Source: Naegleria gruberi
Taxonomy: Eukaryota
Assembly (NCBI GenBank): GCA_000004985.1
Contig: GG738861.1
Strand: one strand, 5' to 3'
DNA length: 64,000 bases
This document shows, piece after piece, positions 11,151-14,318 of the stretch (its first letter is position 1; the number at the start of each line of letters is the position of its first letter). The position numbers and the translations under genes are program-made. Below the pieces are notes generated by a model. That model worked only from the letters and a program-made list of their open reading frames with translations, made no database searches and was not told where the DNA came from.

Positions 11151-14100
11151 ATGATTTTCAATCATGAAAAAGCCAAAATTCTATTAAAATTTCTCCATTT
11201 ACCTCTCACATTCTCTCCAAAGCCTCCAGCTACTCTTTCTCAAACTCTACAATGGACTTTGGAAAGATACTACAATTTACCACTCTATGGAAAGAAGATC
11301 AACATTGCTAACAATACTAATAATACTCTCAATTCAAAGAGTGAACATACAATTTCCGAGCACTCTTCCAAAGCAAATGATGATCATCAATTAAATAATA
11401 ATAATATTATTTATAATGAATTTAATAATTATGAATGGAAAAGTTATGAGGAAATTTATTGTCAGGCTCAAGAATTTCAAATTTATTTGGAGGAGAATTG
11501 TAGTGTGGAGGTTGGTGATTTGGTGTTGATTTGTTGTCCAACGAGTGAAGAGTGGGTGATTGCAGATTTGGCATGTGCAATGGCTGGTCTTGTCTCAATT
11601 CCAGTGGATCCTATGCTTGGTGTTTTGAAAATCAAACAGATTTGTGAGTTGACCAAACCAAAGGCTATTTTGTGTTTGGACTCAACCTTGTTTGATGGTG
11701 TAAAGTTGGATTGCTCTGTAAACATTGTGAAAATTGGACCATTACAGAAGAGAAGTAATTTTGATTCGAAACTGATTGCAAATCTGTCTGAAAAGGAAGA
11801 CGAAACCTATTTATTTACATTGCAACCAACTAGTGGATCAACTGGCAATGTTAAACTCACAAAAAGGACTCGCTCTAATTGGCTTAAAAGAGAAGGAAAT
11901 AGAGAAACCATTCTTCTTATCAATTCCTTATCCAGTCCTTCTTCACGTTCTTGGTTGTGGACTAATCTAATGCAAGGTGGTAAGGTGGCAGAATCTTCAT
12001 TGGAAACTTTAATATCAGACAGTCAAATTGTTCACCCAACCCAGGTTTCTTCCACTCCCATAGTTTGGGATCACATTTCCTCAGTGGTACGAAAGGGAAC
12101 AATCAAACCAACAGCATCCCTGGATGGAACAATATCGTGGATGAATACTCTTTTTGGTCCAAAATGTAGAGCTGTTACAAATACAGGTGCAGGATTGAGT
12201 CAATCAACAAGAGAATTGATGACATCGTTGTTTGGATCTGCTTTTGGAGATGGATATGGTAGTAGTGAAACAGGTGGAATTGCAATTAATGGTAAACTAT
12301 TACCAGGAGTTCAAATTAAATTAGTAGATGTACCAGAAATGGGCTATTACTCAACCGATATTCCATATCCAAGAGGAGAGCTCTATGTGAAAACTAGTAC
12401 CATGTTTGATGGTTATTTAAATGATGAGAAAACCTATCAAGGAAAATATCAAGAATGGTTTCCAACAGGTGACATTATTCAATTATTATCACCTGATGAA
12501 ATTCAAGTTATCGATAGAAAGAGTTTTACAATGAAACTGAAGAATGGAAAATTTGTTTCATCAACTTCAATAGAAAATTCTCTAAAGAGCTCAAAGTTGT
12601 TACAAGTAATTGTAATTGTGGAACAATATTCTGGAAAAGTAATTTCAGTTGTAGTGCCTAATTGGGACTTGTTCAAAGTCTTTTTGAAAGAAAAAGGAGT
12701 GGAAGGCTTGAGCAAAAGTGAAATGTGCTCCTCTGAAAAATGTAGAAACGAAGTATTGAAAGAGTTGAAAAGAATTCAATTATCAGAAGGATGTAATCCA
12801 GATGAAATTCTAAGAGGTGTTTTAATTAAGGAGAATTTATTTAGTGTAGAGGATGGTTCTCTCAATCCTTCTTTAAAGATTTCCAAGTTAGAGCTTGTTT
12901 CTAAATTTTCAAAGGAATTTCAGGAACTGAACAGTAATAATGTTGCAGAGAATGAAAATGATTCAATAGAGAAATATTTGAAAATTTTGAAAGATATTTT
13001 TGGCCACGAAGTGTCAATGGGCAACCATTGGACAGAACTGGGTACAAATAGTATTACTGTTACGATGATTGCCAACAAGTTAAATTCAACATTTGATAGC
13101 CAAATATCATCAAGCCAAATTTACAGATCTATCACAGTGGAAAATCTAGCATTTGAATTATTTAACAATACAAATGCAACTCATCATATAGAAGAGAGAA
13201 CACTATTATTACAGGATATTCAATCTGTTCTTCCACAAACAGATGGAACCAATAGAGCAGTTCCACCGGCTCCACCTCAAACAGTCTTTATGACTGGTTC
13301 GAGTGGCTTTCTTGGAGCCTATATACTGGATAATTTGACAAAACTTGGTGTTAAGGTTATATGTCTAATTCGCTCCAGTCCTGAAAAGTTTTATTCAAGA
13401 ATGGAATATTATGGAATTTCACCCAACAAGAATCTAATTGAACTTGTTAAAGGAGACATTTCAAAACCTCTTTTTGGATTATCAGTCATTGAATTTAATA
13501 ATATAAGAGAAAAGACCCACTCTATTATTCATAGCGCATCTAATGTAAATTGGCTTCTTCCTTACTCTGCTCTTCGTCATACGAATACACTTCCTGTGAA
13601 AACAATAATGCTTCTATCAAATTCAAATATTCCAATCCATTACATTTCTAGCATTGCTTGTGCAGAGCCTGGATCGTGTGAAACTCTTATACCAGACATT
13701 CCACATGACCCTGCATCTATGGGTTACGGTACTTCAAAATGGGCCTCTGAATACCTTCTATCACGCTATTCTAAACAAGACCAAGGTTCGGTTGTTATTT
13801 ACAGACCTGGTCATCTAGTTCCAACATCTGTCGATCAGGTGGTTGGACTGAATGAGAATGACTTTGTTTCTGTACTGATTTCTGGGTGTATTAAAGCAAA
13901 AGCATTTCCACCATATAGTGGAGCTGTGGAATGGACAAGTGTTGGAACAACTGCTAGTTTAATAGTACAATCTGTTATGAAACAAAAAGGTCCACTACCA
14001 TCAGAATTTAATATTTTCTCTCCATTGTCTACCAATTATGAAGATTTATATCAAGCTATATTATTGGAGGGATATGAGCTTAAAAAGTGTAATAAGGATG

Positions 14101-14318
14101 AATGGAACAATATTCTAAAACAGAAAGATAATCCTCTTAACAGTGTTTCTTTTCTACTCGTTGATGGATTGAAAGGAACTAATTTATCAAAACGATTTAC
14201 TTCATCTAATATCAAATATCTAGAAAGAGACCTTTCATGGCCAGCAATTTCAATCCAGAATATTAGAAATTGGATTAGTCACTTGCAAAGAATCAAGCTT
14301 ATTCCTCCACCAAAATGA
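11151..14318 (+). CDS. NRPS-like adenylation-thiolation-reductase (A-T-R) enzyme (carboxylic acid reductase / Lys2-like)
   Basis: A single ORF of 1055 aa. AMP-binding cores are LQPTSGSTGNVK, GDGYGSSETGG and WFPTGD. A phosphopantetheine carrier segment follows (LGTNSITVTMIANKL, Ser in G-x-N-S-I). The terminal domain is an NAD(P)-binding thioester reductase: Rossmann motif FMTGSSGFLGAYILDNL and active-site YGTSKWASEYLL (YxxxK). Confidence 0.8.
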   Translation: MIFNHEKAKILLKFLHLPLTFSPKPPATLSQTLQWTLERYYNLPLYGKKINIANNTNNTLNSKSEHTISEHSSKANDDHQLNNNNIIYNEFNNYEWKSYEEIYCQAQEFQIYLEENCSVEVGDLVLICCPTSEEWVIADLACAMAGLVSIPVDPMLGVLKIKQICELTKPKAILCLDSTLFDGVKLDCSVNIVKIGPLQKRSNFDSKLIANLSEKEDETYLFTLQPTSGSTGNVKLTKRTRSNWLKREGNRETILLINSLSSPSSRSWLWTNLMQGGKVAESSLETLISDSQIVHPTQVSSTPIVWDHISSVVRKGTIKPTASLDGTISWMNTLFGPKCRAVTNTGAGLSQSTRELMTSLFGSAFGDGYGSSETGGIAINGKLLPGVQIKLVDVPEMGYYSTDIPYPRGELYVKTSTMFDGYLNDEKTYQGKYQEWFPTGDIIQLLSPDEIQVIDRKSFTMKLKNGKFVSSTSIENSLKSSKLLQVIVIVEQYSGKVISVVVPNWDLFKVFLKEKGVEGLSKSEMCSSEKCRNEVLKELKRIQLSEGCNPDEILRGVLIKENLFSVEDGSLNPSLKISKLELVSKFSKEFQELNSNNVAENENDSIEKYLKILKDIFGHEVSMGNHWTELGTNSITVTMIANKLNSTFDSQISSSQIYRSITVENLAFELFNNTNATHHIEERTLLLQDIQSVLPQTDGTNRAVPPAPPQTVFMTGSSGFLGAYILDNLTKLGVKVICLIRSSPEKFYSRMEYYGISPNKNLIELVKGDISKPLFGLSVIEFNNIREKTHSIIHSASNVNWLLPYSALRHTNTLPVKTIMLLSNSNIPIHYISSIACAEPGSCETLIPDIPHDPASMGYGTSKWASEYLLSRYSKQDQGSVVIYRPGHLVPTSVDQVVGLNENDFVSVLISGCIKAKAFPPYSGAVEWTSVGTTASLIVQSVMKQKGPLPSEFNIFSPLSTNYEDLYQAILLEGYELKKCNKDEWNNILKQKDNPLNSVSFLLVDGLKGTNLSKRFTSSNIKYLERDLSWPAISIQNIRNWISHLQRIKLIPPPK

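What the first reader, a model, noticed from the sequence alone, without database searches (positions are those of the whole stretch)
11151..14318. NRPS-like adenylation-thiolation-reductase enzyme in a protist-like nuclear genome
One 1055-aa ORF combines three domains. The first is an acyl-AMP-forming adenylation domain (TSGSTGNVK, YGSSETGG, TGD cores). The second is a phosphopantetheine carrier (Ser in LGTNSITV). The third is an NAD(P)H thioester-reductase domain (GSSGFLGAYILDNL Rossmann motif and YGTSKWASEYLL YxxxK). This is the architecture of fungal Lys2 (alpha-aminoadipate reductase) and of bacterial carboxylic acid reductases. Neither is expected by default outside fungi and bacteria. 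The gene is either a marker of the alpha-aminoadipate lysine pathway or a free-standing acid-to-aldehyde reductase of unknown substrate. No phosphopantetheinyl transferase is visible nearby.
Basis: partly seen in the sequence, partly recalled or inferred. Interest (0 to 1): 0.6.

Follow-up and report, generated by a model that had tools for sequence, protein, structure and literature searches.

The report
Divergent carboxylic-acid reductase gene in Naegleria
This is a real, intact Naegleria gruberi gene for a three-domain enzyme built like bacterial carboxylic acid reductases (acid to aldehyde), belonging to a little-studied protist branch of that family in which two active-site residues essential in the studied enzymes are replaced; it is not the fungal lysine-pathway enzyme Lys2.

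Summary
The ORF (11151..14318, +, 1055 aa) and all quoted motifs are there. Pfam calls all three domains above its cut-offs: AMP-binding, PP-binding and NAD_binding_4 (thioester-reductase type). The protein is 100% identical to the uncharacterised N. gruberi protein XP_002678527.1 (NAEGRDRAFT_66188). It lies among ordinary, partly intron-containing eukaryotic genes of the same base composition.

It aligns collinearly with actinobacterial carboxylic acid reductases (CAR/FadD9), and its model's best PDB fold matches are CAR structures. Lys2 matches only the carrier and reductase part, and its adenylation domain is of another class. The family is not confined to fungi and bacteria: named relatives occur in Balamuthia, Protostelium, dictyostelids, Thecamonas, Anaeramoeba, Pelomyxa and a rotifer.

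The Naegleria protein and about eight metagenomic relatives form a tight clade. The clade keeps the P-loop, A5, TGD, A10 Lys576, carrier Ser634, Rossmann motif and Tyr859/Lys863. It replaces two residues essential in a studied CAR, His to Ser262 and Glu to Lys467. Its predicted acyl pocket is lined with Ser/Thr instead of hydrophobic residues.

Most likely it is a PPTase-dependent ATP/NADPH carboxylate reductase of unknown, possibly polar, substrate. It is a new variant of a known kind, of modest interest.

The parts
11151..14318 (+). Complete single-exon coding sequence, 1055 aa plus stop (N. gruberi NAEGRDRAFT_66188 / XP_002678527.1)
   Evidence: ORF list. 100% identity and 100% coverage to P0001; accessions. 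GC 34.6% and GC3 25%, like neighbouring genes.
11307..11423 (+). Asn/Ser-rich low-complexity insertion (aa 53-91), absent from all relatives
   Evidence: AlphaFold2 pLDDT is below 50 for residues 53-91. Relatives go straight from PLWG.. to YNYEW. The DNA shows no plausible GT..AG intron.
11412..12926 (+). Adenylation (ANL, long-chain acyl-CoA-synthetase/FadD9 class) domain, aa 88-592
   Evidence: PF00501 aa 88-423. Collinear BLASTP with M. phlei CAR. hhalign probability 100% against the CAR profile. Best fold hits are CAR A and A-PCP structures 5mss, 5msw, 5mst, 6oz1, 5msq, 5msc and 5msd.
11829..11855 (+). A3 P-loop TSGSTGNVK (clade variant [PV]-K-L instead of P-K-G)
11925..11954 (+). A4 motif variant SLSSPSSRSW. 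Ser262 (11934-11936) occupies the position of the essential CAR histidine (NcCAR His237 = NiCAR His300 = SrCAR His315).
   Evidence: Three alignment methods agree: MAFFT, HMMER pairwise to 5msp with native numbering and hhalign. Ser262 is invariant in the clade. The essentiality of the His comes from PMC5826065.
12255..12278 (+). A5 motif YGSSETGG (Ser372 in place of the CAR Thr; Glu373 invariant)
12465..12473 (+). A7 motif TGD (Asp441 invariant)
12534..12560 (+). A8 hinge motif KLKNGKFVS. Lys467 (12549-12551) occupies the position of the essential CAR glutamate (NcCAR Glu433 = SrCAR Glu533).
   Evidence: Lys467 is invariant in the clade. The essentiality of the Glu and its closeness to the His come from PMC5826065.
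12876..12878 (+). A10 catalytic lysine Lys576 (PSLK)
   Evidence: Invariant in 30 sequences and a Lys in every row listed that covers that column.
12963..13166 (+). Carrier (thiolation) domain, aa 605-672. The phosphopantetheine site is Ser634 (13050-13052) in GTNS; other clade members have G[LI]DS.
   Evidence: PF00550 aa 613-667. Ser634 is invariant. Predicted helices 605-617, 634-648, 654-659 and 663-672.
13272..14300 (+). NAD(P)H thioester-reductase (R) domain, aa 708-1050
   Evidence: PF07993 aa 715-925. TIGR01746 covers aa 711-1050, 180.7 bits. PDB sequence hits are MxaA 4u7w, PKS R 8v1x and CAR R domains.
13293..13337 (+). Rossmann motif TGSSGFLG (Thr715, Gly716, Gly719, Gly722 invariant); Arg741 follows downstream
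13650..13739 (+). R-domain catalytic triad: Ser834, Tyr859, Lys863
   Evidence: The roles of the equivalent NcCAR residues Ser815, Tyr844 and Lys848 come from PMC5826065.

Best explanation
The gene encodes a free-standing, NRPS-like carboxylate reductase of the CAR/FadD9 type. Inferred mechanism, by homology: a separately encoded phosphopantetheinyl transferase converts Ser634 of the carrier domain to the holo form. The N-terminal ANL domain uses ATP to make an acyl-adenylate from a free carboxylic acid, using P-loop 227-235, Glu373, Asp441 and Lys576. After the usual rotation of its C-terminal subdomain, it passes the acyl group to the pantetheine thiol. The carrier then delivers the thioester to the C-terminal SDR-type reductase (TGSSGFLG, Ser834/Tyr859/Lys863), which uses NAD(P)H to release the aldehyde, or possibly the alcohol. 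Shown here: the domain order, all of these residues, homology and fold similarity to solved CARs, and membership of a eukaryotic clade conserved over about 1000 residues. Inferred only: the chemistry and the substrate. The Naegleria clade departs from every characterised CAR in three respects. The His/Glu pair beside the adenylate is Ser262/Lys467, the P-loop ends K-L instead of K-G, and the positions that line the acyl pocket in CARs are small and hydroxylated (Ser264, Ser267, Ser300, Thr302, Thr343, Thr345). I therefore expect a substrate that is more polar, and perhaps smaller or more anionic, than the aromatic and fatty acids of classical CARs. Lys467 may supply the positive charge that the histidine provides elsewhere.
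For: All three domains are above Pfam cut-offs. The best NCBIfam model is 'carboxylic acid reductase' NF041592, matching aa 203-886. The best PDB sequence hits are the CARs 5msp, 5msc and 5mso. BLASTP is collinear over aa 93-923 with M. phlei CAR, 226 bits. hhalign of the clade profile against the CAR profile gives probability 100%, E 2e-100, 964 aligned columns. The AlphaFold2 model has pLDDT 77, and its top eight PDB fold hits are CAR A and A-PCP structures. Catalytic residues are invariant across 30 homologues: K235, E373, D441, D455/R456, K576, S634, T715/G716/G719/G722, Y859, K863. The clade has 100% bootstrap support and sits inside the CAR/FadD9 family, which is itself separated from Lys2/NRPS at 100%. 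The clade is conserved: 57% mean column identity and about 200 invariant columns, including S262, K467 and T343-N344-T345-G346-A347. At least one clade member has an intron-like interruption and one has Ras/Kelch neighbours, so these are eukaryotic genes. The window gene has the composition of its neighbours.
Against: It scores far below NCBIfam's CAR cut-off (244 bits against 1300) and below the TIGR01746 cut-off (180.7 against 213.35). Two of the five residues whose alanine mutants abolish NcCAR activity (PMC5826065) are not conserved here: His to Ser262 and Glu to Lys467. No biochemical, expression or genetic data exist for this gene or for any protist homologue in the searched literature. 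No PPTase is in the window, and the rest of the genome could not be searched. The pocket inference rests on alignments at 21-26% identity and on a pocket list taken from a different CAR, MabCAR3.
Confidence: 0.78

Rival explanations
1. It is a Lys2-type alpha-aminoadipate reductase and so marks the fungal-type alpha-aminoadipate lysine pathway in Naegleria.
For: It shares the terminal T-R part with Lys2 (TIGR03443 116.5 bits over aa 578-826; BLASTP 109 bits to Rhodotorula Lys2). The predicted polar pocket and the extra lysine would not be incompatible with a polar dicarboxylic amino acid. This would have to be convergence.
Against: The TIGR03443 score is about 9-fold below its cut-off of 1030. 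The Lys2 alignment misses the A-domain core. The Lys2 sequences retrieved carry an N-terminal PF00668 domain that is absent here. TIGR01733, the amino-acid adenylation model, scores 57.7 bits against a cut-off of 317. In both trees Lys2 groups with NRPS and is separated from this family at 100% bootstrap. No Naegleria fowleri or N. lovaniensis orthologue appeared in either protein search, so the gene is not a conserved housekeeping step of the genus.
Confidence: 0.04
2. It is a long-chain fatty-acid reductase (the FadD9 sense) that makes fatty aldehydes or alcohols for wax, ether-lipid or signalling-lipid synthesis.
For: The A domain falls in a 100%-supported group with eukaryotic long-chain acyl-CoA synthetases and CAR/FadD9 A domains. 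Sources name homologues 'fatty acid CoA ligase FadD9' or 'long chain acyl-CoA synthetase'. CARs do reduce aliphatic acids (PMC5826065; PMC10168641).
Against: The positions that line the hydrophobic acyl pocket in CARs are Ser, Thr or Gly here and are invariant in the clade. A pocket glycine (MabCAR3 G395) is Thr345, which should shrink the cavity rather than extend it. The source names are automatic annotations, not tests.
Confidence: 0.2
3. The adenylation domain is catalytically dead or repurposed because it lost the His and Glu essential in CARs. The protein would then be a pseudo-enzyme or a reductase loaded by another protein.
For: In NcCAR, both H237A and E433A abolish activity (PMC5826065). 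Both positions are substituted here.
Against: All ATP-binding and adenylation motifs (A3, A5, A7, A8 Asp-Arg, A10 Lys) are kept and are invariant in the clade. The substitutions are specific and invariant (Ser and Lys, not random), as expected for an alternative working site. Across 177 family members the two positions vary together: H&E 104, H only 20, E only 14, neither 39. The odds ratio is 14.5, not corrected for phylogeny. Many lineages thus carry alternative pairs with otherwise intact domains.
Confidence: 0.1
4. The gene is bacterial contamination of the assembly or a very recent bacterial transfer.
For: Until now the family has been characterised mainly in actinobacteria. A Planctomycetes MAG sequence lies in the family.
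Against: The gene sits between an intron-split serine carboxypeptidase gene and an OGFOD1-like gene on a 507-kb Naegleria scaffold. Its GC (34.6%) and GC3 (25%) equal those of its neighbours. The nearest relatives are eukaryotic contigs, with Ras/Kelch neighbours or an intron-like gap. Actinobacterial CARs form a separate 100% clade.
Confidence: 0.02

Closest known systems
Type I (bacterial) carboxylic acid reductases, CAR / FadD9, EC 1.2.1.30 (Nocardia iowensis, Segniliparus rugosus, Mycobacterium; PDB 5msc, 5msp, 5mss)
   Same: Same A-T-R order in one chain. Same class of A domain (long-chain acyl-CoA-synthetase-like, with PYPRGEL, TGD and IDR..N..KL motifs). Same carrier serine, A10 lysine, Rossmann motif and Tyr/Lys pair. 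Best sequence, profile and fold matches.
   Different: Only about 23-26% identity, and about 100 residues shorter. The essential His (SrCAR H315) is Ser262 and the essential Glu (E533) is Lys467. The P-loop ends K-L, not K-G. Pocket positions are Ser/Thr instead of Leu/Ala/Phe/Val/Gly. The catalytic hydroxyl residue is Ser834, as in fungal CARs, not Thr. The R domain has YRPGH where actinobacterial CARs have FR(S/C)D. The host is a eukaryote, and the sequences form separate 100% clades.
Uncharacterised protist A-T-R proteins (Balamuthia KAL6055781.1, Thecamonas XP_013758931.1 'fadD9', Polysphondylium KAF2072257.1, Heterostelium PPL_02983, Anaeramoeba KAJ3452360.1, Pelomyxa KAH3761345.1, Protostelium/Cavostelium/Rhizamoeba transcripts)
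   Same: Same architecture and A-domain class. They score higher against the query (230-290 bits) than the actinobacterial CARs retrieved (about 140-180 bits). They lie in the same poorly resolved, eukaryote-dominated part of the tree.
   Different: 28-33% identity. Most keep the His/Glu pair, and others have their own alternatives (W/Q, Y/V, Q/V). None has the Ser/Lys pair or the SPxxRSW and TNTGA motifs of the Naegleria clade. Several carry extra N-terminal ZZ-type or other extensions.
Fungal Lys2 (alpha-aminoadipate reductase, TIGR03443)
   Same: Carrier plus thioester-reductase module, and dependence on a PPTase (Lys5).
   Different: Lys2 has an N-terminal condensation-like domain and an amino-acid-type A domain. 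It scores only 116 bits on the T-R part here and is separated at 100% bootstrap.
Fungal CARs, types II-IV (e.g. Neurospora crassa NcCAR, R domain in PDB 8aep)
   Same: Same reaction scheme and A-T-R order. A Ser in the catalytic triad, as in this protein.
   Different: The NcCAR R domain is a much weaker match (47 bits) than bacterial CAR or MxaA R domains (104-160 bits).

Membership tests
Carboxylic acid reductase (CAR/FadD9, EC 1.2.1.30; NCBIfam NF041592) | Adenylation, carrier and thioester-reductase domains in that order on one polypeptide | tested here: met
   PF00501 aa 88-423, PF00550 aa 613-667, PF07993 aa 715-925. Collinear alignment with CARs.
Carboxylic acid reductase (CAR/FadD9, EC 1.2.1.30; NCBIfam NF041592) | Score at or above the curated equivalog cut-off (1300 bits) | tested here: not met
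   244.4 bits.
Carboxylic acid reductase (CAR/FadD9, EC 1.2.1.30; NCBIfam NF041592) | A-domain PxxH histidine (NcCAR His237 / SrCAR His315), essential by alanine scan | tested here: not met
   Ser262 by MAFFT, HMMER-to-5msp and hhalign. Invariant Ser in the clade. Essentiality from PMC5826065.
Carboxylic acid reductase (CAR/FadD9, EC 1.2.1.30; NCBIfam NF041592) | A8 hinge glutamate (NcCAR Glu433 / SrCAR Glu533), essential by alanine scan | tested here: not met
   Lys467 by the same three alignments. Invariant Lys in the clade.
Carboxylic acid reductase (CAR/FadD9, EC 1.2.1.30; NCBIfam NF041592) | Phosphopantetheine-attachment serine in the T domain (NcCAR Ser595 / NiCAR Ser689) | tested here: met
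   Ser634, invariant in 30 sequences.
Carboxylic acid reductase (CAR/FadD9, EC 1.2.1.30; NCBIfam NF041592) | R domain T/SGxxGxxG plus GYxxxK (NcCAR Tyr844, Lys848) and a Ser/Thr | tested here: met
   TGSSGFLG aa 715-722, Ser834, Tyr859, Lys863.
Carboxylic acid reductase (CAR/FadD9, EC 1.2.1.30; NCBIfam NF041592) | A10 catalytic lysine and the ANL core motifs A3, A5, A7 | tested here: met
   Lys576, TSGSTG, YGSSE, TGD.
Carboxylic acid reductase (CAR/FadD9, EC 1.2.1.30; NCBIfam NF041592) | ATP- and NADPH-dependent reduction of a carboxylic acid to the aldehyde; activation by a PPTase | not testable with these tools
   There is no biochemical data. No PPTase is in the window, and the genome is not searchable here.
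Lys2 / L-aminoadipate-semialdehyde dehydrogenase (TIGR03443) | Score at or above the curated cut-off (1030.1 bits) over the full length | tested here: not met
   116.5 bits, with the best stretch at aa 578-826 only.
Lys2 / L-aminoadipate-semialdehyde dehydrogenase (TIGR03443) | N-terminal condensation-like domain and amino-acid-type adenylation domain | tested here: not met
   No PF00668 hit, whereas the Lys2 hits carry it. TIGR01733 scores 57.7 bits against 317.4. The A-domain tree separates them at 100%.
Thioester-reductase domain (TIGR01746 / PF07993) | Full-length match to the thioester-reductase model rather than to epimerase/dehydratase models | tested here: inconclusive
   PF07993 scores 108.9 bits (passes) against 39.4 for PF01370. 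TIGR01746 aligns over positions 1-370 of 371, but at 180.7 bits, below its cut-off of 213.35. PDB R-domain hits are MxaA, a PKS R domain and CAR.
Ordinary long-chain acyl-CoA synthetase (ACSL/LACS) | Stand-alone ANL enzyme that transfers the acyl group to free CoA, with no fused carrier or reductase | tested here: not met
   The A domain is of this class, but the protein carries fused PCP and R domains. The LACS hits cover only 44-55% of the query.

The most novel reading that the evidence does not exclude
The Naegleria clade would be a new functional subtype of carboxylate reductase. It would have an alternative catalytic pair (Ser/Lys in place of the His/Glu that is indispensable in the one characterised CAR tested) and a hydroxyl-lined pocket. 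It would act on a small hydrophilic or anionic acid in a protist metabolic step that has not been described. More broadly, the two positions would co-evolve across a large, unstudied eukaryotic radiation of A-T-R enzymes with several alternative active-site solutions.
Probability: 0.3. Interest if true: 0.5.

Novelty: new variant of a known kind. Interest (0 to 1): 0.32.

Why it matters
CARs are valued biocatalysts, and their mechanism has been defined on bacterial and fungal enzymes only. An intact, conserved protist clade lacks two residues found indispensable in the one CAR that was alanine-scanned. This gives a natural test of what those residues do, and it may give access to new, possibly polar, substrates. 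For Naegleria biology it flags an unassigned acid-to-aldehyde step that is apparently absent from N. fowleri in the databases searched. For genome annotation it corrects two easy mistakes: reading any A-T-R protein as Lys2 and a sign of the alpha-aminoadipate pathway, and assuming that such enzymes are confined to fungi and bacteria.

Tried and rejected
(1) Lys2 identity was rejected.

(2) Contamination or recent transfer was rejected on gene context and composition.

(3) I asked whether the Asn-rich insertion (aa 53-91) is an unspliced intron. There is no plausible GT..AG pair of adequate length in 11300-11425, so it was kept as coding.

(4) Literature searches found nothing for Naegleria plus 'carboxylic acid reductase' or for the gene's accessions. 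They gave only irrelevant hits for Naegleria lysine synthesis and for CARs in amoebae or protists.

(5) The structural CAR paper (Gahloth 2017) could not be read by DOI or PMC id. What is said about His315/Glu533 proximity therefore comes second-hand from PMC5826065. The mapping of the over-reduction residue Asp998 onto G887/H888 is my own counting and was left out of the conclusions.

(6) Mapping the MabCAR3 pocket residues by fixed offsets worked only for a CAR with the same His-to-Thr spacing (P0010). Three of ten identities did not match, so L284, L342 and G393 are the least certain.

(7) The neighbour-joining trees resolve the shallow clades but not the deep branching (support below 30%). 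I make no claim on whether the eukaryotic genes are ancestral or came from bacteria.

(9) No synteny was seen between the window and the metagenomic contigs of clade members.

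
Full report
**Observation.** The window holds an uninterrupted ORF at 11151..14318 on the + strand, 1055 codons from ATG to stop.
- TSGSTGNVK, aa 227-235
- YGSSETGG, aa 369-376
- TGD, aa 439-441
- LGTNSITV, aa 630-637
- GSSGFLGAYILDNL, aa 716-729
- YGTSKWASEYLL, aa 859-870

Pfam finds the three proposed domains, each above its curated cut-off: AMP-binding (aa 88-423, 118.5 bits), PP-binding (aa 613-667, 23.3 bits against 20.8) and NAD_binding_4 (aa 715-925, 108.9 bits). 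The carrier-domain score is marginal. It is supported by Ser634, which is invariant in a 30-sequence alignment, and by the helical pattern of the AlphaFold2 model. The C-terminal domain is a thioester reductase rather than an epimerase or dehydratase. NAD_binding_4 beats Epimerase (108.9 against 39.4 bits). TIGR01746 aligns over positions 1-370 of 371. The solved relatives are the reductase domains of MxaA, a PKS and CARs.

**Source and context.** The protein is 100% identical over its whole length to the Naegleria gruberi 'predicted protein' XP_002678527.1 / EFC45783.1 / D2VBE7 (NAEGRDRAFT_66188), on a 507-kb scaffold. The window (about 34% G+C) is full of ordinary eukaryotic genes: an FtsH-type protease, ataxin-10, a serine carboxypeptidase split into exons just upstream, an OGFOD1/Tpa1-type oxygenase just downstream, Bax inhibitor, a PPR protein, GCN5, serpin, kinesin, MIC60, a proteasome ATPase, AMP deaminase and vasohibin. 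The gene's G+C (34.6%) and third-position G+C (25%) match those of its neighbours. It is therefore a resident nuclear gene, not contamination.

**What it resembles.** The best NCBIfam model is 'carboxylic acid reductase' NF041592 (aa 203-886, 244 bits), far below that model's equivalog cut-off of 1300. The best solved-structure sequences are the CARs of Segniliparus rugosus and Nocardia iowensis. BLASTP against the Mycolicibacterium phlei CAR is collinear from residue 93 to 923 (226 bits, 26% identity). A profile of the Naegleria clade aligns to a profile of 19 actinobacterial CARs with probability 100% over 964 columns. The AlphaFold2 model has mean pLDDT 77, and its pTM of 0.51 is as expected for a mobile multidomain protein. 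Its eight best PDB fold matches are CAR A or A-PCP structures.

Lys2 is a poor match. TIGR03443 scores 116 bits against a cut-off of 1030 and covers only the carrier-reductase region. BLASTP to a Rhodotorula Lys2 misses the core of the adenylation domain. The Lys2 sequences carry an N-terminal PF00668 domain that is absent here. The alpha-aminoadipate-pathway reading is rejected.

**Distribution.** An exhaustive HMMER search of 1.84 billion representatives found 453 proteins below 1e-30. Closest are about eight metagenomic sequences (38-49% identity, 460-780 bits) that form a clade with the Naegleria protein. These sequences look eukaryotic:
- One contig (L001, 32% G+C) has Ras and Kelch genes in pieces.
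- Another (L006) has the gene interrupted by a gap of about 140 nt between adjacent protein coordinates, which looks like an intron.
- Others have low-complexity, Pfam-less neighbours.

Next come proteins of 230-290 bits. Those that carry names are from Balamuthia mandrillaris, Protostelium nocturnum, Polysphondylium violaceum, Rhizamoeba saxonica, Cavostelium, Thecamonas trahens, Anaeramoeba flamelloides, Pelomyxa schiedti, Heterostelium album, a bdelloid rotifer and one Planctomycetes MAG. The actinobacterial CARs retrieved score lower, about 140-180 bits. The premise that this architecture is unexpected outside fungi and bacteria is therefore wrong. It is widespread in amoeboid and other protists, where it is uncharacterised and automatically named 'FadD9' or 'acyl-CoA synthetase'. 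No N. fowleri or N. lovaniensis orthologue appeared in either search.

**Phylogeny.** I built neighbour-joining trees with 100 bootstraps on trimmed MAFFT alignments. All CAR/FadD9-like A-T-R proteins separate from Lys2 and NRPS A-T-R proteins at 100%. The actinobacterial CARs form one 100% clade. The Naegleria clade forms another 100% clade, within which N. gruberi and the L001 sequence are sisters at 98%. The Naegleria clade lies in the eukaryote-dominated part of the tree, but the deep nodes have less than 30% support. Ancestry (vertical, or one or several transfers) is therefore open. The adenylation domains of the whole family group at 100% with eukaryotic long-chain acyl-CoA synthetases and away from amino-acid-activating domains.

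**Active-site anatomy.** In a 30-sequence alignment, the residues expected for the CAR mechanism are invariant:
- P-loop Ser228-Gly229, Thr231-Gly232 and Lys235
- A5 Glu373
- A7 Asp441
- A8 Asp455-Arg456
- A10 Lys576
- carrier Ser634
- Rossmann Thr715, Gly716, Gly719, Gly722
- Tyr859 and Lys863

A Ser or Thr stands at position 834.

Two positions differ. Stolterfoht et al. (PMC5826065) showed that alanine replacement of five NcCAR residues abolishes activity: His237 (the PxxH motif, equal to NiCAR His300 and SrCAR His315), Glu433 (equal to SrCAR Glu533), Ser595, Tyr844 and Lys848. [quoted passage not shown] In the Naegleria protein the His position is Ser262 (motif S-L-S-S-P-S-S-R-S-W) and the Glu position is Lys467 (K-L-K-N-G-K-F). 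Three independent alignments give the same mapping: MAFFT, HMMER pairwise to 5msp, whose numbering reproduces H315 and E533 exactly, and hhalign. Both replacements are invariant in all clade members that cover those regions. So is the change of the P-loop end from P-K-G to [PV]-K-L.

Across 177 family members with both columns, His and Glu occur together in 104, His alone in 20, Glu alone in 14 and neither in 39. The odds ratio is 14.5, not corrected for phylogeny. Other lineages have their own pairs (Q with V or I, W with Q, Y with V). The Ser/Lys pair is confined to the Naegleria clade. The two positions thus seem to evolve together, and the pair essential in the characterised CARs is not universal in the wider, unstudied family.

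**Pocket.** The published pocket list for MabCAR3 is L284, A303, L306, L342, V344, G393, G395, G418, G420 and G426, with H301 and T422 beside the adenylate (PMC11606446). I used a Nocardia CAR with the same His-to-Thr spacing as a ruler. The equivalent Naegleria residues are G249, S264, S267, S300, T302, T343, T345, G368, G370 and G375, with S262 and S372 at the two catalytic neighbours. HMMER and hhalign agree for the S300/T302 and T343/T345 stretches. These residues are invariant or nearly so in the clade: motifs P-T-Q-V-S and T-N-T-G-A. Where CARs have hydrophobic side chains or glycine, this clade has hydroxyl groups. With Lys467 added, the site is predicted to be more polar and more positive. 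This inference rests on alignments at 21-26% identity and is the weakest link of the argument.

**Mechanism proposed.** By homology, a trans-acting PPTase loads Ser634. The A domain adenylates a free carboxylic acid and thioesterifies it to the pantetheine arm. The R domain reduces the thioester with NAD(P)H and releases the aldehyde. Further reduction to the alcohol cannot be excluded, because CAR R domains have this side activity (PMC10168641). The domain order, residues, fold and conservation are shown here. The chemistry, cofactor preference, substrate and physiological role are inferred. I put about 0.78 on the general mechanism, about 0.2 on a fatty-acid substrate, about 0.1 on an inactive or repurposed A domain and about 0.04 on Lys2-like function.

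**Comparison and novelty.** It works like a type I CAR and is homologous to that family. It fails three tested membership criteria of the characterised CARs: the equivalog score, the essential His and the essential Glu. I therefore file it as a divergent variant, not a canonical member. The gene is in public databases as an uncharacterised protein. I found no paper that mentions it, or that links CARs to Naegleria or other amoebae, in the library searched. That library omits most subscription journals.

**Verdict.** The Lys2 option and the 'unexpected outside fungi and bacteria' premise are not supported. Interest is modest. The value lies in a natural alternative to the His/Glu pair of CARs and in a large unexplored protist radiation of these enzymes, rather than in a new kind of system.

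Noticed in passing
window 11307-11423 (aa 53-91 of the A-T-R protein): An Asn/Ser-rich low-complexity insertion of about 35-40 residues sits between the conserved PLWG and YNYEW stretches. It is found only in the N. gruberi sequence and is modelled as disordered (pLDDT below 50). The DNA shows no convincing intron signals.
   Followed up: partly
window 14299-14703 (-): A 134-aa ORF with no Pfam match converges on the A-T-R gene and overlaps its last 20 nt, including the stop codon. Whether it is a real gene is unknown.
   Followed up: no
window 42865-43986 (-): An ORF with a strong formate/nitrite transporter (PF01226) match (1.4e-60). This family is mostly prokaryotic, so it may bear on Naegleria's anaerobic or nitrogen metabolism.
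   Followed up: no
window 56479-57906 (-): A vasohibin homologue (PF14822, 2e-50). Vasohibins are tubulin detyrosinating carboxypeptidases in animals, as I recall, which is notable in an amoeboflagellate that builds its microtubule cytoskeleton de novo.
   Followed up: no
window 24985-26383 (-): A serpin is split over two adjacent, slightly overlapping ORFs covering profile positions 14-181 and 187-369. This implies an intron, a frameshift or a pseudogene.
   Followed up: no
L001 3877-3881 (closest relative, P0003): The closest metagenomic relative changes reading frame at protein position about 851 with no gap in coordinates. The called 855-aa product therefore ends in out-of-frame residues. 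This is an assembly frameshift or a decaying copy.
   Followed up: partly
L006 3023-3163 (clade member P0052): The gene is interrupted by about 140 nt between protein positions 252 and 247 in different frames, which looks like an intron. The called protein (724 aa) lacks the N-terminal third for this reason.
   Followed up: partly
family-wide (proteins P0098, P0115, P0116, P0130, P0142, P0147, P0164, P0166, P0167, P0176, P0186, P0189): A second subgroup of unnamed A-T-R proteins has Gln at the His position, Val/Ile/Leu at the Glu position and, like the Naegleria clade, Leu after the P-loop Lys (P-K-L). One of them (P0098) was the weakly supported sister of the Naegleria clade in the NJ tree.
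   Followed up: partly
protein P0090 (unnamed, Logan assembly): This family member shows His and Gln at the R-domain Tyr and Lys columns. That could be a misalignment or an inactive reductase domain.
   Followed up: no
proteins P0007, P0054, P0059, P0062, P0067, P0070: Several protist relatives carry an N-terminal extension with a Cys/His-rich segment (PF00569, ZZ zinc finger, precomputed for P0007) ahead of the A domain. The Naegleria clade lacks it.
   Followed up: no
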